A stretch of DNA of 15,574 bases from a virus (taxonomy: Duplodnaviria > Heunggongvirae > Uroviricota > Caudoviricetes): IMG/VR virus record IMGVR_UViG_2802429244_000016. One strand, given 5' to 3'. Each line of letters begins with the position of its first letter. The first letter of the stretch is position 1. The notes below the pieces were generated by a model. The model saw only the letters and a program-made list of their open reading frames with translations. It was not told the DNA's origin and did no database searches. The translations under genes and the position numbers were made by a program. This document shows, piece by piece, positions 1-15,286 of this stretch.

Positions 1-1254
1 ATGCTGGAACAAATGGGCATTGCTGCGAAGCAAGCCTCGTATAAATTAGCGCAACTCTCCAGCCGCGAAAAAAATCGCGTGCTGGAAAAGATCGCTGATG
101 AGCTGGAAGCACAGAGCGAAAGCATCCTCGATGCTAACGCCCAGGATGTTGCTGACGCGCGTGCCAATGGCCTTAGCGAAGCGATGCTTGACCGTCTGGC
201 GTTAACGCCCGCGCGCCTGAAAGGCATTGCCGACGATGTGCGGCAGGTGTGTAATCTTGCCGATCCGGTAGGGCAGGTGATTGATGGAGGTGTGCTGGAC
301 AGCGGTCTGCGTCTGGAGCGTCGCCGCGTGCCGCTGGGTGTTATAGGTGTAATTTATGAAGCGCGTCCGAACGTGACAGTTGATGTCGCTTCGCTGTGTC
401 TGAAAACCGGTAACGCGGTGATCCTGCGCGGCGGCAAAGAAACCTGTCGCACTAACGCTGCAACGGTAGCGGTGATTCAGGACGCCCTGAAATCCTGCGG
501 TTTACCGGCAGGCGCAGTGCAGGCGATTGATAATCCGGATCGCGCACTGGTGAGTGAAATGCTGCGCATGGATAAATACATCGACATGTTGATCCCGCGT
601 GGTGGTGCTGGTTTGCATAAGCTGTGCCGCGAGCAGTCGACAATTCCGGTGATCACTGGCGGCATTGGCGTCTGCCATATTTACGTTGATGAAAGTGCTG
701 ACATTTCTGCAGCCCTGAAAGTGATCGTCAACGCGAAAACCCAGCGTCCGAGTACCTGCAATACGGTAGAAACGTTGCTGGTGAATAAAAACATCGCTGA
801 TAACTTCCTGCCTGCGTTAAGCAAGCAAATGGCGGAAAGCGGCGTGACGTTACACGCCGATGCTGCGGCACTGGCGCAGTTGCAGGCAGGATCTGCGAAA
901 GTGGTGGCTGTTAAGGCGGAAGAGTATGACGATGAATTCCTGTCGTTAGATTTGAACGTCAAAATCGTCAGCGATCTTGACGACGCCATCGCCCATATTC
1001 GTGAACACGGGACGCAACACTCCGATGCGATCCTGACGCGTGATATGCGCAATGCCCAGCGTTTTGTCAATGAAGTGGACTCCTCTGCTGTTTACGTTAA
1101 CGCGTCTACACGTTTCACCGACGGCGGCCAGTTTGGTCTTGGCGCGGAAGTGGCGGTAAGCACGCAAAAACTCCACGCACGCGGACCAATGGGGCTGGAA
1201 GCGCTGACCACCTACAAGTGGATCGGTATTGGTGATTACACCGTTCGTGCGTAA
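1..1254 (+). CDS. proA: gamma-glutamyl phosphate reductase (glutamate-5-semialdehyde dehydrogenase), complete
   Basis: 417-aa ORF starting [38 protein letters not shown] and ending ...[16 protein letters not shown], recognised as enterobacterial ProA; the window begins at its ATG. Confidence 0.96.
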
Positions 1255-1369
1255 ATAAAACCGGGTGATGCAAAAGTAGCCATTTGATTCACAAGGCCAT
1301 TGACGCATCGCCCGGTTAGTTTTAACCTTGTCCACCGTGATTCACGTTCGTGAACATGTCCTTTTCAGG

Positions 1370-1445
1370 GCCGATATAGCTCAGTTGGTAGAGCAGCGCA
1401 TTCGTAATGCGAAGGTCGTAGGTTCGACTCCTATTATCGGCACCA
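1370..1445 (+). tRNA. thrW: tRNA-Thr, anticodon CGU (thrW-type), including 3' CCA
   Basis: GCCGATATAGCTCAGTTGGTAGAGCAGCGCATTCGTAATGCGAAGGTCGTAGGTTCGACTCCTATTATCGGCACCA: 7-bp acceptor stem, D-loop AGCTCAGTTGGTAGAGC, anticodon loop TTCGTAA, T-arm GGTTCGACTCC. The proA-thrW order matches the known E. coli island insertion hotspot. Confidence 0.95.
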
Positions 1446-1461
1446 TTCAAACATCTCCCCA

Positions 1462-1552
1462 AGTCTACTAAAGTCTTTCAAAACCCCTTATAATCCGCGT
1501 ATTAAAGCCCCGTTCGTCTTTTGACGTCTACTAAAGTCCCTCAAAATCTACG
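1462..1552 (+). repeat. Two direct repeats sharing GTCTACTAAAGTC between the tRNA and int; candidate integrase arm-type or accessory-factor sites in attL
   Basis: AGTCTACTAAAGTCTTTCAAAACCCC (1462-1487) and CGTCTACTAAAGTCCCTCAAAATCTAC (1526-1552); exact shared 13-mer about 64 bp apart. Confidence 0.5.
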
Positions 1553-1610
1553 GTCAGATGGGGGTACTTATGGGGGTATTTGCTGTTCGGTTTAGTGGAG
1601 GTACCCCCAA

Positions 1611-2825
1611 GTGAAACTCAATGCCCGTCAAATAGACACAGCTAAGCCAAAAGAGAAGGCTTACAAGCTGGCCGATGGTGGCGGTTTGTATCTCTTGGTA
1701 AAACCTAATGGAGGTAAATACTGGCGACTTAAATATCGTGTAGCTGGTAAAGAGAAGCTATTGGCACTAGGTGTTTATCCTGAGGTTACTCTAGCCGATG
1801 CTCGGGCAAAACGTGAAGATGCGAAAAGAGGTATCGCTGGTGGTATCGATCCGATGGAAGCGAAACGAGAGGAAAAGATTGCCCGGGAAACGCAGTTAAA
1901 CAACACCTTCAAAGATATTGCCCTTGAGTGGCACAGCAGCAAATTAAAAAAATGGTCTGCTGGTTATGCTTCAGACATCCTCGAAGCCTTCAACAAAGAT
2001 GTGTTCCCTTACATTGGCAAAAAACCCATCGCCGAAATCAAACCACTTGAACTTCTGAATGTGCTGCGTCGCATCGAGGGGCGCGGTGCTACAGAAAAAG
2101 CCAAAAAAGTGAGGCAACGGTGCGGGGAAGTTTTCCGCTATGCAATAGTCACTGGTCGCGCAGAGTATAACCCTGCACCAGACCTTACTAGCGCGATGCA
2201 AGGCCATGAATCTAATCATTACCCTTTCCTTACAGCCAAAGAATTACCTGATTTTTTCAAGGCATTGTCCAGTTACTCAGGAAGCGCATTGGTTGTTATG
2301 GCGGCTCGTCTACTGATTATCACCGGCTTGCGGACTGGCGAACTACGTGGCGCATTATGGGATGAAATTGATTTCAACAAGGCTATCTGGGAGATACCCG
2401 CTTCACGTATGAAAATGCGGCGGCCTCATATTGTGCCATTGTCTGAGCAGGCTCTTTCGCTTATTGGGAAGATTAGAGAAATAACAGGCAATTACCCTCT
2501 TATGTTTCCCGGGCGCAATGATCCAAGGAAAACAATGAGCGAGGCCAGCATAAACCAAGTGTTTAAGCGCATTGGCTACGCTGGACGTGTAACTGGTCAT
2601 GGGTTCCGGCACACTATGAGTACGATTTTGCATGAGCAGGGCTATAACACTGCGTGGATAGAAACGCAGCTCGCTCACGTTGATAAGAACTCAATTCGTG
2701 GCACATACAACCATGCGCAATATCTGGATGGAAGGCGGGAGATGCTTCAATGGTATGCCGACTATATGGATTCTCTCGAGCATGGCGGAAATGTGGTGCA
2801 TATGGTGTTTGAAAAACACGCATGA
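1611..2825 (+). CDS. int: Tyrosine site-specific integrase, P4/CP4-57 IntA family (GTG start)
   Basis: 404-aa ORF. N-terminus MKLNARQIDTAKPKEKAYKLADGGGLYLLVKPNGGKYWRLKYR is typical of P4-type integrases; the C-terminal catalytic region has R (LRTGELRGALW), HGFRHT and the nucleophile Y in RGTYNH. Located immediately 3' of a tRNA. Confidence 0.93.
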   Translation: MKLNARQIDTAKPKEKAYKLADGGGLYLLVKPNGGKYWRLKYRVAGKEKLLALGVYPEVTLADARAKREDAKRGIAGGIDPMEAKREEKIARETQLNNTFKDIALEWHSSKLKKWSAGYASDILEAFNKDVFPYIGKKPIAEIKPLELLNVLRRIEGRGATEKAKKVRQRCGEVFRYAIVTGRAEYNPAPDLTSAMQGHESNHYPFLTAKELPDFFKALSSYSGSALVVMAARLLIITGLRTGELRGALWDEIDFNKAIWEIPASRMKMRRPHIVPLSEQALSLIGKIREITGNYPLMFPGRNDPRKTMSEASINQVFKRIGYAGRVTGHGFRHTMSTILHEQGYNTAWIETQLAHVDKNSIRGTYNHAQYLDGRREMLQWYADYMDSLEHGGNVVHMVFEKHA

Positions 2826-2898
2826 AACAACTGGACAAGTATACAGAGGTTTACTAAAGTATAAGGGAGTAGATTGATAAAAACTCACAGAGGATTGC

Positions 2899-3214
2899 TA
2901 TTTAACAGTTAGCCATGGAGAAGGGCAATCGCTCTTTTAACAACGAAGATGGAATCTTCTACGCAGCTGAAAAGCTGGATGCTCTTTAACAGCCTTTGGT
3001 GCTTTCCTGATGCAGGAAAGAATAGGGATACATGCACCTTTACAATGCATGTAATGATTCATCCATGAGGCTGCGGAGCGCTGACAAAGCGCAATTGCTC
3101 TTTAACATTGATGTGGGCGGGATGGTTCGTCCCGCAGTGACCGATAGATTTCTATCGGGAAACATACAATGATTCAAATATGAATCTACGGCGCTGACAA
3201 AGCGCAATTGCTCT
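2899..3214 (+). repeat. Repeat-rich int-alpA intergenic region: exact 24-bp direct repeat GCGCTGACAAAGCGCAATTGCTCT twice, plus 3-4 copies of a CTCTTTAACA-like motif
   Basis: Identical 24-mers at 3078-3101 and 3191-3214, each with an internal hairpin GCGCT-GACAA-AGCGC. CTCTTTAACA-like copies at 2931-2942, 2981-2991 and 3098-3107. Hairpin GCGGGATGGTTCGTCCCGC near 3117-3135. Confidence 0.55.
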
Positions 3215-3476
3215 CTTGCCTGCCCACCATGCCCTGAAAAAGGGCGTTCTTTAAAACTACTGGATGTCACGCCTAATAGCGTGATCCTGCCGAAATGCAG
3301 GGTAGCTCTACCCTTGTGGAGCAAACAAACCAAAACAATCTGACTATCTTTTATAAAAGACCGCAATATGTTTTTCATATTGTGGTCTTTGGCGTATTCG
3401 ACATTTGACGCAAATAAAACTCTCGCCATTCGTTGCAGGAGGGGGTTATTGCGTCATTAGTACAGGATATTAATAA

Positions 3477-3680
3477 ATGGCTAATTACAATTCATTAATT
3501 CGTCTCTCTGAAGTTCAAAGGCGAACTGGTTATAGCAAAGCATGGATTTATCGTCTTATTAGTCAGGGGAGGTTCCCTAAACAGGTAAAAATTGGAAGTC
3601 GGGCTATTGCTTTTGTTGAGTCTGAAATAGATGAATGGATTGAGAAGTGTATATTAGAATCTAGAGACGAGGTGGCCTGA
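3477..3680 (+). CDS. alpA: AlpA-family phage/satellite transcriptional regulator (excisionase-like winged-helix DNA binding)
   Basis: 67-aa protein MANYNSLIRLSEVQRRTGYSKAWIYRLISQGRFPKQVKIGSRAIAFVESEIDEWIE, the classic AlpA motif pattern; positioned just downstream of the P4-type integrase. Confidence 0.85.
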   Translation: MANYNSLIRLSEVQRRTGYSKAWIYRLISQGRFPKQVKIGSRAIAFVESEIDEWIEKCILESRDEVA

Positions 3681-4111
3681 TGGAAAAGAAAAACCGCCCA
3701 TTACAGGCGGCTAATTCAGATATTCGCGTATCTGATGTTACGCCCCTGACAAAATCCCTTCAAGCACCAAAGCGCACACCGAAAAAGCATCGTGCCAGAG
3801 TCTATATGCTGCGTACTGGTATAGAGGGATGGACAGAAAATGACATTCTTCGCTACTGCCGTCTGTCTTCTGGTCGTAACTATGCAACAGAGTTAGAACG
3901 CCAGCTTGGAATCACTCTGGAGCGTATCGACGAAAAGAATCCTGATGGTATCGGAACACACCTTCGCTACCGTTTCTCCTGCCGTGGTGATGTTCTGAAA
4001 GTGATCACTCATATTAACCATCTTGCGAACATAAATGATCACAACGGACTTTCTCAGCAGGAAATTGCCGACATTCTGAAACTCTACCCGGACGCGTTTA
4101 ACGCCGCCTAA
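3680..4111 (+). CDS. Hypothetical protein (143 aa), basic N-terminus, translationally coupled to alpA
   Basis: ATG overlaps the alpA stop (TGATG). Protein starts MEKKNRPLQAANSDIRVSDV; K/R-rich N-terminus (PKRTPKKHRAR). No family recognised. Confidence 0.6.
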   Translation: MEKKNRPLQAANSDIRVSDVTPLTKSLQAPKRTPKKHRARVYMLRTGIEGWTENDILRYCRLSSGRNYATELERQLGITLERIDEKNPDGIGTHLRYRFSCRGDVLKVITHINHLANINDHNGLSQQEIADILKLYPDAFNAA

Positions 4112-4123
4112 CGGAGACTGAAA

Positions 4124-4957
4124 ATGAACATCGAAAAAAGCAGATTAATTTCTGAGGCCGCCCCTCATCTGAACGCCTCTCTGGGCACAATTAACGGTAA
4201 TGAATTTGCCGCAATTGTCCCGGTTATTCCTGGTCATATCGGTGGGCGTGAAACCAATATTGTTAGCGCAAAAGCGTTGCACAAAGCGTTGGGCGTGGGA
4301 AAAGACTTCTCTACATGGATCACTGATCGCATCTCTGAATATGACTTCACCATTGGGCACGATTACTCAGTCCATAAAACTATTTCCCCAAATTTGGGGA
4401 AAAGCCCGAATGGCGCGGCTTACAGCAAGATTAAGCAGTCTGGCAGACCCGGCAAAGACTATCTGTTAAGTGTCGGAATGGCGAAAGAACTGGCAATGAT
4501 CGAACGCAATGATCAGGGTCGCGCTATCCGCCGTTATTTCATCCAGTGCGAGGAAGAATTACAGCGTAGCGTGCCTGAAATCGCCGCCCGCTATCGTCGC
4601 CAGCTAAAAGCCCGTATCAGTGCCGCAAACAACTTTAAGCCAATGTGCGATGCGCTGAATATGGCCCGTGCCGAGATGGGGAAAACGACGCAGCAACACC
4701 ACTACACAAACGAGAGCAATATGATTTCTCGTATCGTTCTTGGTGGGCTAACTGCTAAGCAGTGGGCGCGGATAAATGGCTATTCTGGCGAACCTCGCGA
4801 CCATATGAACGCAGAACAGCTTGAGCACCTCTCATATCTCGAAAGCACCAATATCACGTTAATTGATATGGGCATGGAATATGAGCAGCGCAAAGGAGAA
4901 CTCACCCGCCTGTCGCAACGCTGGCTCGCCAAGCGTCTGGAGGCGCTCAATGTCTAA
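4124..4957 (+). CDS. Phage antirepressor-like protein with AntA-type N-terminal domain
   Basis: 277 aa; GGAG upstream of the ATG. Segment SAKALHKALGVGKDFSTWITDRISEYDFTIGHDYSV resembles the AntA/AntB motif (W-I-x-x-R-I-x-x-Y-x-F-x-x-G-x-D-Y), recalled from memory. Confidence 0.55.
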   Translation: MNIEKSRLISEAAPHLNASLGTINGNEFAAIVPVIPGHIGGRETNIVSAKALHKALGVGKDFSTWITDRISEYDFTIGHDYSVHKTISPNLGKSPNGAAYSKIKQSGRPGKDYLLSVGMAKELAMIERNDQGRAIRRYFIQCEEELQRSVPEIAARYRRQLKARISAANNFKPMCDALNMARAEMGKTTQQHHYTNESNMISRIVLGGLTAKQWARINGYSGEPRDHMNAEQLEHLSYLESTNITLIDMGMEYEQRKGELTRLSQRWLAKRLEALNV

Positions 4958-5132
4958 GCCAACAGGAATACCACAACCTCAAAAACGCTACAAAGATGCC
5001 CACGGAGCACTCGTTACTGTCGAAAGCGTGTCTCACAACCGAGTGACGTTTTATCGCGACGGGTATCAATCGCCATGCGTACAACCGCTGGCGCGCTTCA
5101 TGAAGGAGTTCGCGGAGGTTAACAAATGCTAA
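4950..5132 (+). CDS. Small hypothetical protein (60 aa; DUF4222-like by recollection)
   Basis: ATG at 4950 preceded by GGAGG (4939-4943) and overlapping the upstream stop; MSKPTGIPQPQKRYKDAHGALVTVESVSHNRVTFYRDGYQSPCVQPLARFMKEFAEVNKC. The ORF track's 4863 start lacks an RBS. Confidence 0.55.
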   Translation: MSKPTGIPQPQKRYKDAHGALVTVESVSHNRVTFYRDGYQSPCVQPLARFMKEFAEVNKC

Positions 5133-5563
5133 CCGCCCAGAAGAAGACATTTTCACTGGCTGGCATGTCGCCAAAATCCAGCAATATGACAGCAAAGTCA
5201 GGCATTAATACAGCAGATACAAGCAAAGTTTATCATTTGCTGGTGGTAGGAGCGGATGCCTTAACTATGTCAGAAATCACGGTCGATGGTGTTAGCGTTG
5301 AGAAGGTCAGCGGCTGCGCCAGAGAATTTCTGGTCGTAGATCACCTGTTCTGCTCGTGTAGTGACTCCACAAAAACATTCGTCCACGCGCGTGACGTTAA
5401 CGAAATGAGCGCGATGTACTGTGCTTCTGGTTCTTCCAATAGTGAGTTTTCGGAGTCCATAAAAAAGAGCTTGCCGTTATGCGGCAACACGGTTTATGGT
5501 TATAAGGCACCTCATAAAACGGGTGCCGGGTTTCGCAGCCCGGAAATGTACGAGGCGACACAT

Positions 5564-5584
5564 GACGCGCCGAGCGTCTTTTTT
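5564..5584 (+). terminator. Candidate intrinsic terminator (short GC stem plus T6)
   Basis: GACGC-GCCGA-GCGTC followed by TTTTTT (5579-5584). Stem is only 5 bp, so this is weak. Confidence 0.35.
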
Positions 5585-5594
5585 TGTGCCGTTA

Positions 5595-5632
5595 GCCAGA
5601 CTCACACTTTTTTCAGTGATGTGGTTATAATC
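5595..5632 (+). promoter_or_regulatory. Candidate sigma70 promoter for the small-ORF/primase operon (perfect -10 TATAAT at 5625-5630)
   Basis: GTGATGTGGTTATAATCCGCG; no convincing -35 hexamer (CACACT-like at about 5602-5607). Lies downstream of the candidate terminator and upstream of the structured leader. Confidence 0.35.
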
Positions 5633-5639
5633 CGCGTCG

Positions 5640-5788
5640 CTTGCAAAATTATGGTGGGCTGGACAGGGCAGCCGAAAGGCTGGCCGGTTTCCTTGTACGC
5701 CGGTACTGCGAACTCTGTTCAGTCCACCACCAGCGAGTTTCGCAGCTCCGGTGGTGGGAAGAATTCCCAGTACAAGGAGGCTGCCACA
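5640..5788 (+). ncRNA. Structured 5' leader / candidate regulatory RNA upstream of the primase operon (possible P4 CI-RNA-like immunity element)
   Basis: GNRA hairpin CAGCC-GAAA-GGCTG (5668-5681); 8-bp stem CCACCACC (5723-5730) / GGTGGTGG (5749-5756) presenting loop TTTCGCAG; single-stranded CTGCGAA (5706-5712) complementary to that loop; an upstream hairpin CCGGG-TTTCGCAG-CCCGG (5526-5543) presents the same loop sequence. Confidence 0.4.
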
Positions 5789-5982
5789 TGCTGGCTACTA
5801 CCCCTACCCAAAAACCGCAATTTATCTGGATTATCGCCGCAGTTCGCCGCGATTGCCAGACAATTACCGCCAAAATTCATCATATTGCTGCCGAGTCTGA
5901 ACGCGATGCTCGCCGTTCTCTGGTGCGCGATCACGTCTGCTTTTTTGCTGGTCGTATCCGCATGGAGGTGGCACATGATTAA
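5789..5982 (+). CDS. Hypothetical small protein (64 aa), first gene of the coupled operon
   Basis: Strong RBS AGGAGG (5775-5780) 8 nt before the ATG at 5789; MLATTPTQKPQFIWIIAAVRRDCQTITAKIHHIAAESERDARRSLVRDHVCFFAGRIRMEVAHD. Confidence 0.55.
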
Positions 5983-6193
5983 AACCTACGATGTGCATAT
6001 GGATCCCCTCGAACGCACAAGCCAGATCATCACACTGACAGAGGTGATTAATGACATTCTGGTGAGCAACTCTCCCTCACGAGACGAAAAACTGAAGGCG
6101 TTACTCGCGATATTGGATCTCGCCGTTCGTGACGTTCATTTCCTGCTGGAAGGTGGACAAATGCCATGCAAAACGGGGGCAACCAATGAATAA
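5975..6193 (+). CDS. Hypothetical small protein (72 aa)
   Basis: ATG at 5975 preceded by GGAGG (5964-5968) and overlapping the upstream stop; MIKTYDVHMDPLERTSQIITLTEVINDILVS... The ORF track shows this frame open from 5126, but the upstream part lacks a start context. Confidence 0.5.
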   Translation: MIKTYDVHMDPLERTSQIITLTEVINDILVSNSPSRDEKLKALLAILDLAVRDVHFLLEGGQMPCKTGATNE

Positions 6194-6380
6194 CTCAATT
6201 AATACCCCTCGCCTTACGTCCGCACTTCAATTAATCGAGCAAGCAGCGGCTGTCCTGGTTGCTGTCAGTCTTTCGGCTGAAGAAATGGACGCTGCTGATG
6301 TCGTGGATGCGATTAAAGCGTGCTCATCTTTGGTTAACGATGCCCGTGCAGAGCTGGTAATTCTTGGTGGTGAAAAATGA
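6186..6380 (+). CDS. Hypothetical small protein (64 aa)
   Basis: ATG at 6186 overlaps the upstream stop; MNNSINTPRLTSALQLIEQAAAVLVAVSLSAEEMDAADVVDAIKACSSLVNDARAELVILGGEK. Confidence 0.5.
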   Translation: MNNSINTPRLTSALQLIEQAAAVLVAVSLSAEEMDAADVVDAIKACSSLVNDARAELVILGGEK

Positions 6381-6640
6381 ATATCAACTTAATTTATCGT
6401 CATCCGTGTGAGCTGGAAATTGAATCATTGCTGGGGCGCGAAGAGCCATATCCAGACACATTCACTCCCGCAGATTGCGCGACTGAACGGCTTACCAGAG
6501 CGCGCACAGGTCTGGTTCATGTGATGAATGAGATTATTCCCTCGGTGGGAGGGGAACAGGCGACAGTAATCAATAGCTGGCTACAAAAAGTTACCTCCCT
6601 GATAGATATCAGTTTAATCGATGTGGAGAGTGCGAAATGA
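6377..6640 (+). CDS. Hypothetical small protein (87 aa)
   Basis: ATGA start/stop overlap with the upstream gene; MNINLIYRHPCELEIESLLGREEPYPDTF... Confidence 0.55.
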   Translation: MNINLIYRHPCELEIESLLGREEPYPDTFTPADCATERLTRARTGLVHVMNEIIPSVGGEQATVINSWLQKVTSLIDISLIDVESAK

Positions 6641-6858
6641 CCAACATCCAGCTCATTGAAGCGCAATGTCGCATCGAACAGGTTCAGACTGTTTTAGGGT
6701 TCTGGCTTGAAGGGGCCAGCCCCAGCAACAGAGACAAGTTAATGATTGGCGCGGTTATGTCACTGCTCAATGGCGTACCAGAAGCTATTCAGGAAGCGGA
6801 CGAATTGTTGGGCAAATATGAGTTACAGAATCATTCAGGCGAGGCGAAACATGAATAA
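6637..6858 (+). CDS. Hypothetical small protein (73 aa)
   Basis: ATGA overlap with the upstream gene; MTNIQLIEAQCRIEQVQTVLGFWLEGASPSNRDKLMIGAVMSLLNGVPEAIQEADELLGKYELQNHSGEAKHE. Confidence 0.5.
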   Translation: MTNIQLIEAQCRIEQVQTVLGFWLEGASPSNRDKLMIGAVMSLLNGVPEAIQEADELLGKYELQNHSGEAKHE

Positions 6859-7453
6859 TTTCTTAACTTTCCATGCAGAAGCAACGCCTGACGGCGTAAA
6901 CATCATGTACCGCAGCAACGATGGCATGACAGAACGCGTTGAGGCCGTCTCATATATTGATGCCGTAAATCGTCTGGATGCCGGGGATTATGACGATAAA
7001 CCAGATGAAGGTATGTCAATACATCTCGCTATTGCCGATGGCGGCAACCAGGGATATTTCGATTACACATCACAGCATAACGTCATTATGTGGAGATGGC
7101 TGATCGCCACAGTATTCATGCTGGAAATGAGAGAGGAAAACGGCACTGTCAGCATCATTGATGATACTGGCAATCCTTCCGAAGTGGCTGTTTATTCCAA
7201 CGGCATCGTCGCCATGCCGCTGTATCCAGTAGCAGAGCGCCTCGCTATGGCAAACAACATTGAGGGCGCGATGATAGAACGTTTTGGCATCGAGTCTGGC
7301 ACAGAACGCGCCATCATTTTCTACAGAGCCATGATGGATGTGGAACAAGGAGCACTGACTCCATTTGGTCGTGAAACGCTTGCTGAACTTCACAACAGCT
7401 TTATAGCTGAACTGAATGAAAACGGCATGCCAGCGGAACCAGTGACGCACTGA
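6851..7453 (+). CDS. Hypothetical protein (200 aa)
   Basis: ATG at 6851 overlaps the upstream stop (ATGAATAA); MNNFLTFHAEATPDGVNIMYRSNDGMTERVEAVSYIDAVNRLDAGDYDDKPDEG... The ORF track's 6746 start would overlap the upstream gene in another frame without an RBS. Confidence 0.6.
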   Translation: MNNFLTFHAEATPDGVNIMYRSNDGMTERVEAVSYIDAVNRLDAGDYDDKPDEGMSIHLAIADGGNQGYFDYTSQHNVIMWRWLIATVFMLEMREENGTVSIIDDTGNPSEVAVYSNGIVAMPLYPVAERLAMANNIEGAMIERFGIESGTERAIIFYRAMMDVEQGALTPFGRETLAELHNSFIAELNENGMPAEPVTH

Positions 7454-7463
7454 GGATGGAACC

Positions 7464-7805
7464 ATGATTACTAAAAATTTCCGACTGAATGCGCTGGCAA
7501 ATAAGTATGCGTCGGCACTGTATAACCACATAACCTCCACCAGCGGCGGGGACTATTTCATGGTTGATGCGGACGGCGAAGCCGTCCGTGTGGAAATCGT
7601 CAATGGAGTAAAAGGCGTTCGCAGACTGATCGATAGCTACACACTGGCAGCCATGAAAGTGTTCTACCCGCAGTGGGAAACCGTGGGGATTGAGCTTCTT
7701 GATCGTTGCGTCACTAAGGACGGATTGACTGACGTCGGGCGTGAGATATGGCAAAGCATGGTTAAAGACATGGGCGCAACTGTAGCGGGAGGTTCTCATG
7801 CGTGA
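7464..7805 (+). CDS. Hypothetical protein (113 aa)
   Basis: RBS GAGGATGG before the ATG at 7464; MITKNFRLNALANKYASALYNHITSTSGGDYFMVDADGEAVRVEIVNG... Confidence 0.6.
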   Translation: MITKNFRLNALANKYASALYNHITSTSGGDYFMVDADGEAVRVEIVNGVKGVRRLIDSYTLAAMKVFYPQWETVGIELLDRCVTKDGLTDVGREIWQSMVKDMGATVAGGSHA

Positions 7806-8169
7806 AAATGCAGAAATGGCGCTTAGCTCCGCAATCGGAGAGCAGGTGGCAAAGATTGCTGGTGCTGTGTGGATTCATAACCTTCATTCTACTGGTGAAG
7901 AGAAAATGGCAATTCAGACGCCAGAGGGACGCACCATTACTACATCTCTGAAGCCGTCAGATATTTGTGATCTGATTTGCACATTCATGTACCCAGCAAT
8001 GAGGACTGTCCACGGCGATAAGTGGAAACTTGCGACAACCGCTGAATTTGATATGTGGCTAAACAATGATGGCATGCTGACTGATTACGGAATAACCAAG
8101 TGGCAGATGCTGGTTAGCCATATCGCAAACGCTATAGACCACGTGGGGTACGGTGATGCGAAACATTGA
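7798..8169 (+). CDS. Hypothetical protein (123 aa)
   Basis: RBS GGAGG (7788-7792) then ATG at 7798, overlapping the upstream stop; MRENAEMALSSAIGEQVAKIAGAVWIHNLHSTGEEK... Confidence 0.6.
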   Translation: MRENAEMALSSAIGEQVAKIAGAVWIHNLHSTGEEKMAIQTPEGRTITTSLKPSDICDLICTFMYPAMRTVHGDKWKLATTAEFDMWLNNDGMLTDYGITKWQMLVSHIANAIDHVGYGDAKH

Positions 8170-10912
8170 TCTTATCCGTCAGGTTATCAGTGCGTCTGAA
8201 AACAACTGGCCTCATGTGCTGGGCTGCCTGAACATAAATGTCCCTGACTCTCCGCGCCGTCATGCTCCCTGCCCTGCATGTGGGGGCAAAGATCGATTCC
8301 GGTTCGATGACAACGGGCGCGGTAGCTTCATCTGTAATCAGTGCGGCGCTGGTGATGGGCTGGATTTAATTAAACGCGTAAATAACTGCGACACAACAGA
8401 GGCGGCGCTTCTTGCCGCTGATGTTCTGGGTATTGATTACCGGACAACGGAAACACCAGAAGCCACCAGCCAGAAACGGGAACAACAGGAAACCGAGCGC
8501 CAGCGACGCGAACAGGAGCGCCTGAAAAGGGCAGAGAAGGACGAACAACAAAGACGGGATACGTTTTCCCGTCAGTTTGATGACATGCGCAGAAAGGCTG
8601 TAAACGGCAAATCTGATTATCTGGTTGCGAAAGGGGTAGGTGATTTTACATTCCCCGTGTTGCCCGATGGATCTCTGTTGCTGGCGCTGGTGGATAAATC
8701 CGGCGCAGTAACAGCAGCACAGACTATTACCTCACATGGTGAAAAAAGACTCCTGACAGGTTCAGCAAAGCGAGGGGCATATCACGCCATAAACGCACCA
8801 GAAACAACACAGAGCATCTTAATCGCAGAAGGGCTGGCAACGGCATTATCTGCCCATTTAATTCGTCCAGAGGCGCTGACAGTGGCGGCGATTGATGCCG
8901 GGAACCTGTTATATGTCGCCCAGGTACTGCGGGATAAATTTCCTTCAGCACAAATCATCATTGCTGCGGATAACGACCACAGCGAAGGAAGACAAAACAC
9001 GGGGAGAATAGCAGCAGAAAAGGCAGCTTTATCTGTTTCTGGATGGGTGGCATTACCCCCGACAGATCACAAAGCAGACTGGAATGATTACCACCAAAAA
9101 CACGGCATTAAATGCGCCACAGAAGCGTTCAATAAGTCAATGTACCAACCACAGGGTAATGGCGTGAAACAGGAGCCACAGACCATTGAGGGAAGCGATT
9201 TTAAGGTTATGGATACCGACCCACTGAAACCAAGAATAGAAAGCCGCGAGGATGGTATTTATTGGGTATCTCCGAGAGCTGACAGCCAGAGTGGAGAAAT
9301 CATCAATAACGAAAGCTGGTTATGTTCTCCGTTAAGCGTTATCGGTACTGGCAGAGACGATAAAGACCAGTATCTCATTCTTCGCTGGCTGTCGTTTGGT
9401 TCTGAAACGCCGACAACCGCTGCCATTCCACTGGCTGATATTGGTGAACGTGAAGGATGGCGCACACTTAAAGCTGGTGGGGTAAATGTCACGACCAAAA
9501 GCAGCCTCAGAGCAATACTGGCAGACTGGCTACAACGCAGTGGCTCTCGTGAATTGTGGCGTGTTGCTCATGCCACTGGCTGGCAATGCGGAGCGTACAT
9601 CATGCCTGATGGGGAAATCATCGGAACACCTGAAAATCCTGTGCTGTTCAGCGGGAGAAGCTCAGCCGCAGCCGGATATACCGTCTCAGGGAGCGCGAAA
9701 AGCTGGCGTGATAACGTGGCGCGTCTGGCCTTTGGTAACTATTCAATGATGACCGGGATCGGCGCAGCACTGGCAGCGCCATTGATTGGGCTGGTGGGCG
9801 CTGACGGGTTCGGCATTCATTTCTATGAGCAGTCGAGCGCAGGTAAGACCACCACGGCAAACGTGGCGAGCAGCTTATACGGCAACCCTGATTTACTGCG
9901 GCTGACGTGGTACGGAACCGCGCTGGGGCTGGCAAATGAAGCCGCCGCCCACAATGACGGACTAATGCCGCTTGATGAAGTTGGTCAGGGCGCTGATCCT
10001 GTCAGTGTTTCACAGTCTGCCTATGCGTTATTTAACGGTGTAGGGAAACTGCAAGGTGCTAAAGATGGTGGAAACCGGGATCTAAAACGCTGGCGTACAG
10101 TGGCAATCAGCACCGGAGAAATGGATTTAGAAACATTTATCGCTACTTCCGGGCGAAAAACCAAAGCCGGGCAACTGGTGCGACTGCTGAATATTCCGTT
10201 GAGTAAAGCAGTACGCTTTCACGATTACCAGAACGGAAAACAGCACGCAGACGCACTGAAAGACGCTTACCAGCATCACCACGGCGCAGCCGGGCGTGAG
10301 TGGATTAAATGGCTGGCAGACCACCAGCAACAGGCTATTAAAACTGTTCGTGACTGCGAAAGCAGATGGAGAAGCCTGATTCCATCCGATTATGGTGAGC
10401 AGGTTCACCGTGTAGCCGCGCGATTTGCCATTCTGGAGGCCGCATTGCTGTTAGGCGAGGTTGTAACAGGCTGGGATGCTCAGACATGCCGTGATGCGAT
10501 ACAGCACAGCTATAACGCATGGTTGCGCGAGTTCGGCACAGGTAACAAAGAACATCAGCAGATTATTGAACAAACGGAGGCATTTCTTAATGCCTATGGG
10601 CTTAGCCGTTTTGCACCATTTCCATACAGCCCGGCAGATTTGCCAATCAAAGATTTAGCCGGATACCGTCAGCGTGGAGAACATGACGAAAGCCCAATGA
10701 TTTTCTACACATTCCCGGCCACATTTGAAAAGGAGATCGCATGTGGTTTCAACGCAAAACAGTTTGCTGAAGTGTTGAAAAAAGCCGGGATGCTAACCCC
10801 ACCAAACAGCGGTCGTGGATACCAAAGAAAATCACCACGTATTCAGGGACGACAAATAAACGTTTATGTACTCAATTACCAGCCAGGAGATTACAACTCA
10901 TCTGAAGAATGA
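8153..10912 (+). CDS. Bifunctional DNA primase/helicase, P4 alpha-like (zinc-ribbon + TOPRIM primase N-terminus, P-loop NTPase C-terminus); functionally the pri-rep of a satellite
   Basis: 919 aa. Cys4 zinc ribbon CPACGGKDRFRFDDNGRGSFICNQCG; TOPRIM-like IAEGLATALS and IIIAADNDHSEGRQNTG; Walker A FYEQSSAGKTT. Start is GTG 8153 or ATG 8156, overlapping the upstream gene. Confidence 0.9.
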   Translation: MMRNIDLIRQVISASENNWPHVLGCLNINVPDSPRRHAPCPACGGKDRFRFDDNGRGSFICNQCGAGDGLDLIKRVNNCDTTEAALLAADVLGIDYRTTETPEATSQKREQQETERQRREQERLKRAEKDEQQRRDTFSRQFDDMRRKAVNGKSDYLVAKGVGDFTFPVLPDGSLLLALVDKSGAVTAAQTITSHGEKRLLTGSAKRGAYHAINAPETTQSILIAEGLATALSAHLIRPEALTVAAIDAGNLLYVAQVLRDKFPSAQIIIAADNDHSEGRQNTGRIAAEKAALSVSGWVALPPTDHKADWNDYHQKHGIKCATEAFNKSMYQPQGNGVKQEPQTIEGSDFKVMDTDPLKPRIESREDGIYWVSPRADSQSGEIINNESWLCSPLSVIGTGRDDKDQYLILRWLSFGSETPTTAAIPLADIGEREGWRTLKAGGVNVTTKSSLRAILADWLQRSGSRELWRVAHATGWQCGAYIMPDGEIIGTPENPVLFSGRSSAAAGYTVSGSAKSWRDNVARLAFGNYSMMTGIGAALAAPLIGLVGADGFGIHFYEQSSAGKTTTANVASSLYGNPDLLRLTWYGTALGLANEAAAHNDGLMPLDEVGQGADPVSVSQSAYALFNGVGKLQGAKDGGNRDLKRWRTVAISTGEMDLETFIATSGRKTKAGQLVRLLNIPLSKAVRFHDYQNGKQHADALKDAYQHHHGAAGREWIKWLADHQQQAIKTVRDCESRWRSLIPSDYGEQVHRVAARFAILEAALLLGEVVTGWDAQTCRDAIQHSYNAWLREFGTGNKEHQQIIEQTEAFLNAYGLSRFAPFPYSPADLPIKDLAGYRQRGEHDESPMIFYTFPATFEKEIACGFNAKQFAEVLKKAGMLTPPNSGRGYQRKSPRIQGRQINVYVLNYQPGDYNSSEE

Positions 10913-10938
10913 GCTTCTTCATGTGCGTAGAAAAGGTG

Positions 10939-11048
10939 TTGGTTCAGTTGGTTCAGTTGGCTCAATTTGTAAAGAGTATTGTTTTATAAGGATTTTATTC
11001 TTTTTGTTGAACCAACACTGAACCAACAACACGGTATTTTGAACCAAC
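10939..11048 (+). repeat. Iteron cluster A (ori-like): 3 tandem GTTGGTTCA, AT-rich spacer, 3 inverted TGAACCAAC
   Basis: GTTGGTTCA at 10939-10947 and 10948-10956, GTTGGCTCA at 10957-10965; AT-rich spacer; TGAACCAAC at 11008-11016, 11019-11027 and 11040-11048. Immediately 3' of the primase gene. Confidence 0.7.
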
Positions 11049-11098
11049 ACAATGTGACTGAATTGATGCGCACAACACCTGGCTGGCATCAGAGAGTG

Positions 11099-11174
11099 TT
11101 TTACGAGACTTTCGTAAAATCCTGTGTACAAGGGCGTGGCGTTTTTGAAGGATAAACCTACGAAATTTTCGTAG
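11099..11174 (+). promoter_or_regulatory. Two dyad-symmetric operator-like sites with shared core TACGA-N5-TCGTA
   Basis: TTTTACGA-GACTT-TCGTAAAA (11099-11119) and the perfect 17-bp palindrome CTACGAAATTTTCGTAG (11158-11174), centres about 57 bp apart. Confidence 0.5.
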
Positions 11175-11370
11175 TTCAAAAAATAGTCTCTGAGATGTTG
11201 TTATGCCTGTTCAGCAAACCATCTGCGTAGCTGATCGCGAATCAAATTACCAATGGAGCCAGAAGCAAGGGCAGAACTGGAAATCGCCTGCCGTGTAGAG
11301 TAATGCGACACCATAAATATAGTTTTCAGAGTCCATAGAAACCTGTCAAAACCTGACATACAGAACGATG

Positions 11371-11399
11371 CCACCAGATACTGAATGGTGGAATTTTTG
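11371..11399 (+). terminator. Weak candidate intrinsic terminator
   Basis: CCACCA-GATACTGAA-TGGTGG followed by AATTTTTGT; 6-bp stem, so marginal. Confidence 0.25.
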
Positions 11400-11493
11400 T
11401 GCTATTTGTTTCATATTTTGCAATAACAATGATGAGTGATGCGATTTATGAAACTATAATAACTGTTGTTTTATACAGATCTAAGGGGGCGTT

Positions 11494-11673
11494 ATGGCTA
11501 TTTCAGTAAAGCCAGTATTGATAAGTGAGAAGCAAATGGAAGCGATAAAGAAAATTCAGGAAGAGCAGCGTAAAAAATCAGAGGTAGGAGTTGCGCCAAC
11601 GATCCATGAAATTGCTCGGGGATTAATGGATAAGGCGCTGACAATACACGCAAAAATGAAGGTGTCTGCATGA
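11494..11673 (+). CDS. Small hypothetical protein (59 aa), translationally coupled to the 604-aa gene
   Basis: Not in the supplied ORF track (below its length cut-off). RBS AAGGGGG (11482-11488) then ATG at 11494; TATAAT at 11455-11460 upstream; stop TGA overlaps the next ATG (ATGA). MAISVKPVLISEKQMEAIKKIQEEQRKKSEVGVAPTIHEIARGLMDKALTIHAKMKVSA. Confidence 0.5.
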   Translation: MAISVKPVLISEKQMEAIKKIQEEQRKKSEVGVAPTIHEIARGLMDKALTIHAKMKVSA

Positions 11674-13484: not shown

Positions 13485-13509
13485 TCATACTTCTAGTGCT
13501 CGTTGAAAA

Positions 13510-14226
13510 TTATTTGGATAATGAGTTAGCCACTCTAATTACCTTAATTAAGAATGCGTATTCTACTGAGCCTTTCCCATAGGCTCTTTCTGCTATATCT
13601 AAAGCTTTAACAAGAGGTATTCCGTGCTGGTCTTGTGTAATATTGGCAACCATAACACCCTGACATGCTAACATTCCGTCAACCCTCAGTATGGAATAGC
13701 TTGTTGAATCTTTTGGAGCCTCTTGAGATAACTGTTCGCAATGATTTTTTATCGTTAAACCATGTATCTTTTTTTGTGATGCATAAAGCTCCAGTGCTGA
13801 AACCTTTTGCTCAGTTGTAGCATTTGATGGAACCGTGGGGTAAATAACCTGATCTGGATGTTGACTGTAATAATACTCGGTTGCCATCTCAGAAGATGTA
13901 TTAATGACATTAATTTGATAGGCTTTCCTGTCATCATTGAAGCCCCAAACAGATTTAACCTTGGCTATTTTCCACTGATTTATTTCTTTTGCATTTTTAG
14001 CAACAACTGCCGTTCTCATGGCGTCTATGCAGGTAAGATTCACATAAGACCTAACATCTGCAGGTGTTTCCCCAATTTTCGCGAGTTCATCCCCTGATTT
14101 CTCAACAACTTGCTCAGCGTATGAAGAACATTTTTCAATAAGATCTAACCCCGTCACATTTTCAGCATTTACCTTCACAGACAGGAAGATGGAGAACATT
14201 ATTACGAGTGCCGTTATTTTTTTCAT
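13510..14226 (-). CDS. Secreted (Sec signal peptide) hypothetical protein, 238 aa, four Cys; convergent with the SLT-domain gene
   Basis: MKKITALVIMFSIFLSVKVNA followed by ENVTG (predicted cleavage after VNA). Mature part has four Cys, consistent with periplasmic disulfides. Visibly AT-rich compared with the rest of the element. No family recognised. Confidence 0.75.
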   Translation of the reverse strand: MKKITALVIMFSIFLSVKVNAENVTGLDLIEKCSSYAEQVVEKSGDELAKIGETPADVRSYVNLTCIDAMRTAVVAKNAKEINQWKIAKVKSVWGFNDDRKAYQINVINTSSEMATEYYYSQHPDQVIYPTVPSNATTEQKVSALELYASQKKIHGLTIKNHCEQLSQEAPKDSTSYSILRVDGMLACQGVMVANITQDQHGIPLVKALDIAERAYGKGSVEYAFLIKVIRVANSLSK

Positions 14227-14583
14227 CTCGATACCATTGTGTAATTTTGATGACTTTATCTACTAACCTGTTTATCAACATATGATTTACCACAAAACGT
14301 GAGATTTCATAACGCGTCCAGCAGTTGATGTTGCCAATCCTACTACATGATCTGTTAATATTTGTTAATATTCTAAGCCGTTAAGATGATGTACTGATTT
14401 TCTATTTGGCAGCCTGTCAGTCCTCACCCTCAACGACGCAAAAAGCAACTCTGCCGACCACGAATTATCTCATGGATGGTCATATCATACCGGGCACCAC
14501 TAGCATGGAGGCAAATGATAAAACCATATGAGAGCACCAGCCAATCAACAGAAGAAACCTGCACCTCTTCAGATAACCCAGAG

Positions 14584-15027: not shown

Positions 15028-15128
15028 ATCAGTGAGTAATATCCATACAGTATACCACTGTATAACACTGTTATACGCTCAAATATCAGCCAGAAAATAA
15101 CGGGCCAATCACAAAGCTATCGCTGTGT

Positions 15129-15250: not shown

Positions 15251-15286
15251 ACCTTTTTGCTTATCTATATAATCTGAGAGGCAGAA

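What the first reader, a model, noticed from the sequence alone, without database searches (positions are those of the whole stretch)
5520..5790. Structured leader with kissing-loop potential upstream of the primase operon: candidate RNA-based immunity element like P4 CI RNA
Two hairpins present the same loop sequence UUUCGCAG (5526-5543 and 5723-5756), and a single-stranded CUGCGAA between them (5706-5712) is complementary to that loop. A GNRA-capped hairpin (5668-5681) and a candidate terminator (5564-5584) sit in the same stretch, followed by a strong RBS and the first operon gene. In P4, expression of the operon containing the primase is controlled by a small RNA whose seqB pairs with seqA and seqC to force premature termination. 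The layout here is analogous, and no protein repressor gene is evident in the element.
Basis: partly seen in the sequence, partly recalled or inferred. Interest (0 to 1): 0.6.

Follow-up and report, generated by a model that had tools for sequence, protein, structure and literature searches.

The report
P4-type antisense-RNA immunity module
This stretch is a real but already well-described RNA switch, the IsrK/seqA leader plus C4/CI antisense RNA that satellite phage P4 and phage P1 use to keep their replication genes silent, here sitting in a phage-satellite island next to the tRNA-Thr gene of an Escherichia genome.

Summary
The two UUUCGCAG loops, the complementary CUGCGAA, the GAAA hairpin, the terminator and the strong ribosome-binding site are all at the stated coordinates, give or take one base.

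It is a known element. Rfam places isrK at 5507-5584 (69 bits) and C4 antisense RNA at 5647-5734 (81 bits), both above their curated thresholds. Phage P4 gives the same two hits in the same order upstream of kil. The gene after the leader (5788-5982) is an Icd/Kil homologue.

The C4 hairpin loop CCUUGUAC pairs with GUACAAGGAGG (5770-5780), which covers the Shine-Dalgarno sequence, and with GUACGAGG (5548-5555) upstream.

Across 85 distinct relatives, both recognition elements co-vary with both of their targets (91-93% paired, against 37-53% with partners slid). All the intramolecular helices co-vary as well.

An open reading frame (5126-6193, Pfam Phage_ASH, equivalent to P4 eta) does span the region. 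It does not refute the RNA: the frame is kept open but shows no codon periodicity, as expected for P4's nested eta.

Published work already describes IsrK/C4 modules in P4-like prophages and Gram-negative PICIs.

The parts
5471..5500 (+). P_LE-like promoter: -35 TTGCCG (5471-5476), 18-nt spacer, -10 TATGGT (5495-5500); predicted start near G5507
   Evidence: Aligned with the conserved CTTGCC...TATAGT of P4 and 80+ relatives. A5496, T5500 and G5507 are at least 90% conserved. It matches only 8 of 12 consensus positions, so the promoter scan did not flag it. Assignment as the promoter is inferred.
5507..5584 (+). IsrK-like leader, equivalent to the P4 seqA region: hairpin 1 (5507-5526), hairpin 2 (5527-5542) presenting b1 UUCGCAG (5532-5538), a1 GUACGAGG (5548-5555), and a t1-like intrinsic terminator (5564-5584)
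   Evidence: Rfam RF01394 isrK scores 69 bits against a gathering score of 50. The three helices are 83-98% paired, with 13 of 16 pairs showing changes on both sides. The terminator scan finds the terminator.
5647..5734 (+). C4/CI-type antisense RNA gene: 17-bp outer stem (5652-5668/5713-5729), GAAA hairpin (5669-5682), a' hairpin (5683-5704, loop 5688-5699), b' junction CUGCGAA (5706-5712), and 3' CCA (5730-5732)
   Evidence: Rfam RF01695 C4 scores 81.1 bits against a gathering score of 45. The minimum-free-energy fold equals the Rfam consensus, at -45.8 kcal/mol and z = -4.9. Helices are 99-100% paired with compensatory changes. The tetraloop alternates between GAAA and UUCG/CUCG/UCCG in relatives.
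5724..5757 (+). Hairpin presenting b2 (seqC-like) UUCGCAG (5739-5745) in its loop; its 5' strand overlaps the 3' strand of the C4 outer stem, so the two are alternative structures
   Evidence: 96.6% paired, 8 of 11 pairs changed on both sides, covariation 0.40 against at most 0.16 when slid. The b'/b2 pairing is 97.6% paired, with 6 of 7 pairs co-varying.
5770..5780 (+). a2 target GUACAAGGAGG, complementary to the a' loop and containing the Shine-Dalgarno sequence AAGGAGG (5774-5780) of the icd/kil-like gene
   Evidence: Complementarity of 11 nt including 2 G-U pairs. The helix is 90.5% paired in 85 relatives, with 6 pairs changed on both sides.
5788..5982 (+). icd/kil-like gene (64 aa), first translated gene of the operon that ends with the primase; inferred site of the Rho-dependent terminator equivalent to P4 timm
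   Evidence: NCBIfam phage_ICD_like scores 70.6 bits against a cut-off of 25. It is 44% identical to P4 Kil. Codon-position variability of 0.48/0.43/1.05 shows it evolves as a coding sequence. P4 timm is at X51522 8365-8209, inside kil.
5126..6193 (+). Ash/eta-like open reading frame (355 codons) that runs through both RNA genes. It starts overlapping the stop of the DUF4222 gene, passes icd in the +1 frame and ends in frame with gene 5975-6193
   Evidence: Pfam Phage_ASH scores 91 bits over 5495-5788. It is 34% identical to the P4 eta open reading frame. The frame is open in 65 of 81 relatives, against 2 of 81 for each other frame. Full-length homologues occur in E. coli, Klebsiella and Raoultella. 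There is no codon periodicity over the RNA part.
8153..10912 (+). Primase/helicase gene (Zn-ribbon, Toprim, DUF927), the last large gene of the regulated operon
   Evidence: Pfam hits. Eight short co-oriented open reading frames with overlapping or nearly abutting ends link it to icd.

Best explanation
This is the immunity region of a P4-related satellite or PICI-type island, inserted at tRNA-Thr (thrW).

A constitutive P_LE-like promoter (about 5471-5500) starts transcription at about 5507. The first 78 nt form the IsrK/seqA-like leader, which ends in an intrinsic terminator (t1-like, 5564-5584). Read-through transcripts contain the C4/CI RNA (5647-5734). RNase P and 3' trimming cut this out as a stable RNA of about 80 nt.

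The RNA displays two recognition elements. One is the a' loop (CCUUGUAC, 5691-5698). The other is the b' junction (CUGCGAA, 5706-5712).

Acting on newly made leader transcripts, the RNA pairs at two places:
- With b2 and a2 (5739-5745, 5770-5780). This covers the Shine-Dalgarno sequence of the icd/kil-like gene. With icd untranslated, transcription terminates inside or before icd (Rho-dependent, timm-like) and the downstream replication genes, including the primase, stay off.
- With b1 and a1 (5532-5538, 5548-5555). This increases termination at t1 and so limits the RNA's own synthesis.

Transcripts from an upstream, induced promoter are translated through the whole region in the Ash/eta frame (5126-6193) and so escape termination.

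Shown here: homology to P4, the RNA structures, the complementarities and their covariation, conservation of the promoter and terminator, and conservation of the open frame.

Inferred from P4 and P1 experiments: processing, action in trans, the termination sites, Rho dependence, and bypass by translation.
For: - Rfam C4 scores 81.1 bits and isrK 69 bits, both above their gathering scores.
- Phage P4 gives the same two hits, at 74.9 and 60.8 bits, in the same order upstream of kil.
- The downstream gene is Icd/Kil-like.
- P4 differs from the window in a matched way at all six sites. P4 has b' UUCUCAC with b1/b2 GUGAGAA and a' CCUGUGAA with a1/a2 UUCACAGG. The window has b' CUGCGAA with b1/b2 UUCGCAG and a' CCUUGUAC with a1 GUACGAGG and a2 GUACAAGG.
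- Among 85 distinct relatives there are 32 a'/b' combinations, and the targets follow them. The downstream helices are 93.3% paired with covariation 0.56, against at most 0.14 for slid partners and 0 of 500 shuffles. The upstream helices are 90.7% paired with covariation 0.61, against at most 0.145.
- The intramolecular C4 and isrK helices are 97.1% paired, and 25 pairs show changes on both sides.
- The C4 minimum-free-energy fold equals the Rfam consensus, with z = -4.9.
- The promoter -10 positions A5496 and T5500 and the start G5507 are at least 90% conserved.
- The Ash/eta frame is open in 65 of 81 relatives, in one frame only. The five linker lengths seen in the loci where that frame is open (138, 150, 156, 168, 195 nt) are all multiples of 3.
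- Published work agrees. IsrK equals seqA and C4 equals CI in P4-like prophages (PMC3632133). The P4 mechanism is summarised in PMC4825925 and PMC10111431. RNase P processes CI and C4 (PMC5499578). timm lies inside kil (PMC3177188).
Against: - There are no expression data for this element. Processing, action in trans and Rho dependence are all taken from P4 and P1.
- The -10 (TATGGT) is weaker than the family consensus TATAGT, and the promoter scan did not report it.
- The isrK segment alone does not fold better than shuffled sequence (z = -0.8).
- The Rfam c4-a1b1 model scores only 22.5 bits against a gathering score of 46.7.
- The minimum-free-energy fold of the isolated downstream leader prefers a different hairpin, one that itself buries the Shine-Dalgarno sequence. 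The ground state of the target is therefore uncertain.
- Unlike P4, the Ash/eta frame is not in frame with icd.
- The replication protein is of the DUF927/Toprim type rather than P4 alpha.
Confidence: 0.9

Rival explanations
1. IsrK-type activation, as in Salmonella Gifsy-1. In the read-through transcript the a1/b1 segment pairs in cis with a'/b', locking an inactive structure. The short terminated IsrK-like RNA (5507-5584) then acts in trans as an activator or decoy that opens this structure, or titrates C4, and switches on downstream translation. On this reading the module is mainly an induction switch rather than a repressor. This is not mutually exclusive with the best explanation.
For: - isrK scores above the gathering threshold and has its own terminator.
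- The minimum-free-energy fold of the whole leader (5503-5800) forms the long-range a1b1:a'b' helix, at -131.6 kcal/mol and z = -5.6. This resembles 'structure A' of Hershko-Shalev et al. 2016 (PMC4825925).
- The a1/b1 to a'/b' covariation fits cis pairing as well as trans pairing.
Against: - The downstream layout is that of P4 (icd/kil followed by replication genes), not orf45-anrP.
- The a2 and b2 sites over the Shine-Dalgarno sequence co-vary with C4 just as strongly. A pure activator model does not need that.
- In P4, seqA is needed to establish immunity (stated in PMC3632133).
Confidence: 0.2
2. The region is simply part of a protein-coding gene, the 'ash family protein' of automatic annotation, and the RNA motifs are incidental.
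For: - The frame is open for 355 codons.
- Pfam Phage_ASH scores 91 bits.
- Hundreds of predicted homologues carry the 'ash family protein' name.
- PGAP annotates an ash pseudo-CDS here.
Against: - Variability by codon position is flat over 5507-5787 (0.64/0.65/0.68). The neighbouring icd/kil gene gives 0.48/0.43/1.05.
- Substitutions are compensatory for RNA helices and for long-range pairings.
- The tetraloop swaps between GNRA and UNCG types.
- Two Rfam covariance models score above threshold.
- In P4 the same open reading frame (eta) coexists with the CI RNA (PMC10111431).
Confidence: 0.02
3. A purely cis-acting leader or attenuator. The alternative hairpins (the C4 outer stem against the b2 hairpin against the hairpin that buries the Shine-Dalgarno sequence) set icd translation on each transcript, and no diffusible small RNA is involved.
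For: - Mutually exclusive conserved helices share the strand 5724-5729.
- The minimum-free-energy fold of 5713-5800 buries the Shine-Dalgarno sequence and the AUG without any partner RNA.
Against: - The family members that have been studied (P1 c4, P4 CI) act in trans and confer superinfection immunity (PMC4825925; PMC3632133).
- The conserved 3' CCA tail fits an RNase P substrate.
- Two sets of targets are maintained for one pair of recognition elements.
Confidence: 0.05

Closest known systems
Immunity region of satellite phage P4 (P_LE, seqA/t1, cI RNA with seqB, seqC, kil/timm, nested eta)
   Same: - The order of elements and the spacing are the same.
- The same Rfam hits occur.
- The Kil/Icd proteins are homologous, as are the eta/Ash open reading frames.
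- An AlpA/Vis-like gene lies upstream and a primase operon downstream.
- Both have two target sets for the RNA.
   Different: - The recognition sequences differ, so the immunity specificity differs.
- The linker between t1 and the RNA is 62 nt, against 107 nt in P4.
- Three extra genes (a 143-aa open reading frame, AntA-type, DUF4222) lie between alpA and eta.
- The eta frame is +1 relative to icd and runs on into the next gene, instead of ending as Kil.
- The replication protein is of the DUF927/Toprim type.
- No sid, delta or psu genes are in the window.
c4 antisense RNA of phages P1 and P7 (c4-icd-ant operon; Rfam RF01695 and RF03163)
   Same: - The RNA is processed from the leader of the operon it controls.
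- Its a' and b' elements pair with a2 and b2 over the icd ribosome-binding site and with a1 and b1 upstream.
- P1-like phages RCS47, D6 and JL22 align over isrK, C4 and icd at 68-69% identity.
   Different: In P1 the operon encodes the antirepressor Ant after icd. Here the AntA-type gene is upstream and the controlled genes are replication genes. The c4-a1b1 model scores below its threshold here (22.5 bits).
IsrK-orf45(STnc1160)-anrP locus of Salmonella prophage Gifsy-1 (Rfam RF01394)
   Same: An IsrK-type leader with a Rho-independent terminator is followed by a C4-like processed RNA that is complementary to it (PMC4825925). The nucleotide sequence is conserved but the peptide is not.
   Different: In Gifsy-1, IsrK was shown to act as an activator in trans, and the downstream gene is an antirepressor-like protein translationally coupled to orf45. 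Here a separate Shine-Dalgarno sequence and icd/kil gene carry the a2 target.
Immunity RNAs in the Bro zone of Gram-negative PICIs and helper-embedded PICIs (PMC10111431)
   Same: The island has the same four-zone layout: integrase and AlpA, then the Bro zone with AntA and Phage_ASH, then the primase, then the late zone. The C4 and isrK Rfam hits lie inside the Bro-network gene.
   Different: Nothing substantive. This appears to be one more such island, at thrW.

Membership tests
Rfam RF01695 C4 antisense RNA | Covariance-model score at or above the gathering score (45 bits), full-length match | tested here: met
   81.1 bits, model positions 1-87 of 87, at 5647-5734
Rfam RF01695 C4 antisense RNA | Long closing stem enclosing two hairpins, the second with a 12-nt loop (a'), followed by an unpaired junction (b') | tested here: met
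   The minimum-free-energy fold reproduces this structure. Helices are 99-100% paired with compensatory changes in 85 relatives.
Rfam RF01394 isrK | Score at or above the gathering score (50 bits); two 5' hairpins plus a Rho-independent terminator | tested here: met
   69 bits, model positions 1-77 of 77, at 5507-5584. The terminator is found independently. The helices co-vary.
Rfam RF03163 c4-a1b1 | Score at or above the gathering score (46.7 bits) | tested here: not met
   22.5 bits at 5494-5546. P4 itself scores only 44.1 bits. The same bases are covered by the isrK hit.
P1 c4 / P4 CI immunity system | Recognition elements of the RNA are complementary to a site downstream that overlaps the ribosome-binding site of the first gene, and to a site upstream in the same leader | tested here: met
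   a'/a2 has 11 pairs covering AAGGAGG, b'/b2 has 7, a'/a1 has 9 and b'/b1 has 7. Covariation scores are 0.56 and 0.61.
P1 c4 / P4 CI immunity system | The first translated gene after the RNA is icd/kil | tested here: met
   NCBIfam phage_ICD_like scores 70.6 bits. The protein is 44% identical to P4 Kil.
P1 c4 / P4 CI immunity system | The RNA is cut out of the leader transcript by RNase P and acts in trans to cause premature termination and immunity | not testable with these tools
   Only indirect evidence is available: a conserved 3' CCA/CCC tail after the closing stem, and RNase P substrates of this type are documented (PMC5499578).
P4-type left operon | A nested eta open reading frame starts upstream of P_LE, reads through seqA and cI, and ends as Kil | tested here: inconclusive
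   An eta/Ash-homologous frame is present and conserved. Here it is +1 relative to icd and ends with the next gene. In 72 of 96 relatives it ends at the kil stop.
P4-like satellite (sensu stricto) | sid, delta and psu capsid-size and transactivation genes, and an alpha primase-helicase | tested here: not met
   No such genes lie in the 15.6-kb window. The replication protein is Zn-ribbon/Toprim/DUF927. The layout fits a Gram-negative PICI.

The most novel reading that the evidence does not exclude
In this island lineage the read-through open reading frame (Ash/eta) has moved out of the icd frame, yet it still runs open through both RNA genes, through icd and into the next gene.

What may be selected, then, is ribosome transit across the leader and the Rho site, in whatever frame, as the way induced upstream transcripts escape RNA immunity. 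No Eta protein as such would be needed.

A related possibility concerns the combinatorial a'/b' 'codes'. The same code was found on a diverged C4 scaffold (L147). The codes could form a cross-immunity network through which satellites and helper phages sense or silence one another.
Probability: 0.2. Interest if true: 0.4.

Novelty: already known. Interest (0 to 1): 0.12.

Why it matters
It matters little beyond annotation. The element is a textbook RNA-only immunity switch, and its presence shows that this thrW island controls its replication genes as P4 does.

Three practical points follow:
- The 'ash family protein' and 'transcriptional repressor' labels that pipelines place here hide two RNA genes.
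- The a'/b' sequences (CCUUGUAC and CUGCGAA) define the island's immunity type. They can be used to predict which related elements are co-immune.
- The dataset of 32 co-varying code combinations is a clean natural example of programmable RNA-RNA recognition.

Tried and rejected
- I first took the TATAAT at 5626-5631 for the promoter of the C4 RNA. I rejected it because it is not conserved in the alignment, whereas the CTTGCC...TATAGT element upstream of isrK is.
- I considered that the long open frame running through icd into gene 5975-6193 might be specially selected. I rejected this as evidence because the +1 frame of Icd/Kil genes is stop-free in 45 of 56 distinct genes anyway.
- I considered a second C4 target at GTACAAGG 11126-11133. 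There is no b-type site or ribosome-binding site nearby, so it is probably chance.
- A loose target-pattern scan of viral contigs returned mostly chance matches. Only hits with the native 41-nt spacing were real.
- RNAduplex energies for cognate against non-cognate P4 and window pairs discriminated poorly, because I included G+C-rich stem bases. I did not use them.
- The primary P4 papers (PMC94026, PMC176756) are not held. P4 details therefore rest on summaries in held papers and on my own recollection of Briani et al. 2000 (t1, t4) and Forti et al. 1999 (kil, eta).
- Pfam, PHROGs and NCBIfam gave nothing for open reading frames 3040-3429(-), 3680-4111, 5975-6193 and several others.
Full report
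OBSERVATION

- Hairpin CCGGG/CCCGG (5526-5543) has the loop UUUCGCAG.
- CUGCGAA sits at 5706-5712.
- The GAAA-capped hairpin is at 5669-5682.
- The terminator GACGC-GCCGA-GCGUC-U7 is at 5564-5584, and the terminator scan also finds it.
- AAGGAGG is at 5774-5780 and ATG at 5788.

The b-type 7-mer or its complement occurs three times within 214 nt, where 2.9 copies are expected in the whole 15.6 kb on both strands. A second 8-mer, GTACRAGG or its complement, also occurs three times in the same stretch, against 0.47 expected for the window.

WHAT IT IS

Rfam places two curated families here, both above their gathering scores.
- isrK (RF01394): 5507-5584, 69 bits against 50.
- C4 antisense RNA (RF01695): 5647-5734, 81.1 bits against 45.

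A third model for the a1/b1 targets of C4 (RF03163) overlaps isrK at 22.5 bits, below its threshold.

I ran the same scan on phage P4 (NC_001609). It returned isrK at 8692-8615 and C4 at 8507-8420, upstream of the kil start at 8365. The P4 CI RNA is therefore a C4-family RNA, the P4 seqA region is an IsrK-family leader, and the window has the same order and nearly the same spacing.

The gene that follows (5788-5982, 64 aa) matches NCBIfam phage_ICD_like at 70.6 bits. It is 44% identical to P4 Kil.

ANATOMY

In the Rfam and minimum-free-energy fold (-45.8 kcal/mol, z = -4.9), the C4 RNA has four parts:
- a 17-bp closing stem (5652-5668 with 5713-5729);
- the GAAA hairpin;
- a second hairpin (5683-5704) with a 12-nt loop;
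- an unpaired junction holding CUGCGAA.

The two UUUCGCAG loops are b1 (in isrK hairpin 2, equivalent to seqA) and b2 (equivalent to seqC).

The loop CCUUGUAC (a', 5691-5698) is complementary to GUACAAGGAGG (a2, 5770-5780), which contains the whole Shine-Dalgarno sequence. With one G-U pair it is also complementary to GUACGAGG (a1, 5548-5555), between isrK hairpin 2 and the terminator.

P4 differs in a matched way at all six sites. It has b' UUCUCAC with GUGAGAA twice, and a' CCUGUGAA with UUCACAGG twice.

COVARIATION

A pattern taken from the conserved a' hairpin found about 120 loci in IMG/VR. These gave 85 distinct 355-nt regions, counting the window and P4. They carry 32 different a'/b' combinations, and in nearly all of them the cognate 7-12-nt complements sit at fixed offsets both downstream and upstream.

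| Structure counted on alignment A1 | Cells paired | With partners slid | Covariation score | Slid, at most |
|---|---|---|---|---|
| a'/a2 plus b'/b2 | 93.3% | 40-53% | 0.56 | 0.14 |
| a1/a' plus b1/b' | 90.7% | 37-53% | 0.61 | 0.145 |
| Six intramolecular helices of isrK and C4 | 97.1% | 30-46% | 0.32 | 0.07 |

- For every row, 0 of 500 shuffles reached the observed percentage paired or the observed covariation score.
- In the six intramolecular helices, 25 pairs changed on both sides, against 15.1 +/- 1.7 in shuffles.
- The tetraloop alternates between GAAA and UUCG, CUCG or UCCG. This is typical of an RNA-level constraint.

PROMOTER AND TERMINATORS

The alignment shows a conserved CTTGCC-N18-TATAGT element immediately upstream of isrK. 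In the window it reads TTGCCG (5471-5476) and TATGGT (5495-5500). A5496, T5500 and the presumed start G5507 are at least 90% conserved. This corresponds to P4 P_LE.

The TATAAT at 5626 is not conserved.

The P4 Rho-dependent terminator timm is at X51522 8365-8209 (PMC3177188), which is inside kil. By homology, the equivalent here would lie inside 5788-5944.

THE SPANNING OPEN READING FRAME

An open frame of 355 codons (5126-6193) does cross it.
- Its translation over 5495-5788 matches Pfam Phage_ASH at 91 bits.
- PGAP annotates 'ash family protein' pseudo-CDSs here.
- It is homologous to the P4 eta open reading frame, at 34% identity and E = 5e-14.

In relatives this one frame is open from before isrK to beyond the Shine-Dalgarno sequence in 65 of 81 distinct sequences. 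Each of the other two frames is open in 2 of 81. In the loci where that frame is open, the five linker lengths between isrK and C4 are all multiples of three. Full-length homologues of 330-355 aa with a conserved start exist in E. coli, Klebsiella and Raoultella.

Variability by codon position is nevertheless flat over the RNA region (0.64/0.65/0.68). The adjacent icd/kil genes show the coding signature (0.48/0.43/1.05).

So the frame is kept open, but the sequence evolves as RNA. That is what the published P4 model predicts. In that model, eta is translated only from the upstream late promoter, and its translation protects the transcript from termination (summarised in PMC10111431; Forti et al. 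1999, from my own knowledge).

One local peculiarity: the start region here reads ATGCTG where a close relative (L020) has CATG, two bases more. This puts the Ash frame +1 relative to icd, so it runs on to the stop of the next gene. The +1 frame of Icd/Kil genes is stop-free in 45 of 56 genes in any case, so I do not read special selection into this.

CONTEXT

The gene order in the window is:
- proA;
- tRNA-Thr(CGU);
- integrase;
- AlpA/Vis-like regulator;
- a 143-aa open reading frame;
- AntA-type protein;
- DUF4222;
- Ash/eta, containing isrK and C4;
- icd;
- seven further short genes;
- Zn-ribbon/Toprim/DUF927 primase;
- iterons;
- a late zone with a lytic-transglycosylase protein.

This is the Integration-Bro-Replication-Late layout of Gram-negative PICIs, in which C4 and isrK Rfam hits have already been reported (PMC10111431).

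The 401-nt core is at least 99% identical in 432 of 5,426 complete E. coli genomes, and one place covers at least 80% of it in 426. The module recurs at about 70% identity in P1-like and Stx or lambdoid phages. No complete E. coli genome holds more than 81% of the whole window.

MECHANISM

The steps are the same as in the best explanation above, with the same split between what was shown here and what is inferred from P4 and P1:
1. P_LE-like transcription starts at about 5507.
2. Some transcripts stop at the t1-like terminator and give an IsrK-like RNA.
3. Read-through transcripts are processed, by RNase P at the 5' end, to the C4/CI RNA (PMC5499578).
4. The RNA pairs through a' and b' with a2 and b2. 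This blocks the icd ribosome-binding site and causes premature termination, so the primase operon stays silent.
5. It also pairs with a1 and b1, which raises t1 termination and so limits its own synthesis (Briani et al. 2000, from my own knowledge).
6. Induced upstream transcripts are translated in the Ash/eta frame and escape.

A Gifsy-1-style role for the short IsrK-like RNA, as a trans-activator or decoy (PMC4825925), is compatible with this. The predicted long-range a1b1:a'b' helix in the full leader fits it. I rate it 0.2 as the main function.

COMPARISON AND NOVELTY

The element passes the Rfam membership tests for C4 and isrK. It meets the defining complementarity and gene-order features of the P1 c4 / P4 CI system. 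It fails only the c4-a1b1 score threshold and, for P4 in the strict sense, lacks sid, delta and psu.

The equivalence of IsrK with seqA and of C4 with CI in P4-like prophages was stated in 2013 (PMC3632133). Their presence in PICI Bro genes was stated in 2023 (PMC10111431).

I therefore rate the finding as already known. Interest is 0.12.

Noticed in passing
window 10938-11050: Three tandem GTTGGTTCA repeats (10938-10964) and three inverted TGAACCAAC copies (11008-11050) flank an A+T-rich spacer just after the primase stop. This is a candidate iteron-type replication origin.
   Followed up: partly
window 5471-5487: A perfect inverted repeat, TTGCCG-N5-CGGCAA, overlaps the -35 of the P_LE-like promoter. 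On the minus strand it is followed by a T-run and scores as a terminator. It could stop antisense transcription or serve as an operator. Relatives have different small inverted repeats at the same place.
   Followed up: no
window 5495-5788 (frame of 5126-6193): Pfam Phage_ASH and the PGAP 'ash family protein' pseudo-CDS are the translation of the isrK and C4 RNA genes. There is no codon periodicity, yet the frame is kept open. Automatic annotation hides two RNA genes under a protein label.
   Followed up: yes
window 5788-5982: PHROGs labels the Icd/Kil-like protein 'transcriptional repressor' (phrog_1743 and phrog_6928). This is probably inherited from the old annotation of a P4 'cI gene product' open reading frame, still present in NC_001609.
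   Followed up: partly
window 5785-5793 and 5975-6193: The start region reads ATGCTG where a close relative (L020) has CATG, two bases more. This shifts the Ash/eta frame to +1 relative to icd, so it runs through icd and ends in frame with the 72-aa gene 5975-6193. The +1 frame of Icd/Kil genes is stop-free in 45 of 56 genes.
   Followed up: yes
loci L003-L120 (alignment A1); L147 about 8400-8600 minus strand: The a' and b' recognition sequences are reassorted independently, giving 32 combinations in 85 sequences. L147 carries the window's a'/b' and matching targets on a clearly diverged C4 scaffold, with compensatory GCUGG/CCAGU in the a' stem. This suggests immunity types shared between unrelated elements.
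   Followed up: partly
window 5650-5654: The AUGG at the 5' edge of the C4 closing stem is invariant in all 85 relatives. It is Met176 of the Ash frame. It may correspond to the first AUG of Gifsy-1 'orf45', whose nucleotide sequence but not peptide sequence is conserved (PMC4825925).
   Followed up: no
window 5713-5800: The minimum-free-energy fold of the isolated downstream leader pairs GCAGCUCC (5742-5749) with GGA-GCUGC (5776-5784) and CCAGCG (5730-5735) with UGCUGG (5789-5794). This buries the Shine-Dalgarno sequence and the AUG without any antisense RNA. It is a third alternative structure besides the C4 stem and the b2 hairpin.
   Followed up: no
window 1-15574: No complete E. coli genome holds more than 81% of the window. 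Most E. coli genomes match only at 90-95% identity. The late zone (11670-15574: an SLT-domain protein, unknown minus-strand open reading frames, a PerC-like start) is mosaic compared with strains A20 and G749.
   Followed up: partly
window 3040-3429 minus strand: A 129-aa open reading frame lies between the integrase and alpA. It has no family hit in Pfam, PHROGs or NCBIfam, and PGAP does not call it in the related strain A20. It is probably non-coding. This intergenic region would hold the P_LL-like upstream promoter.
   Followed up: no
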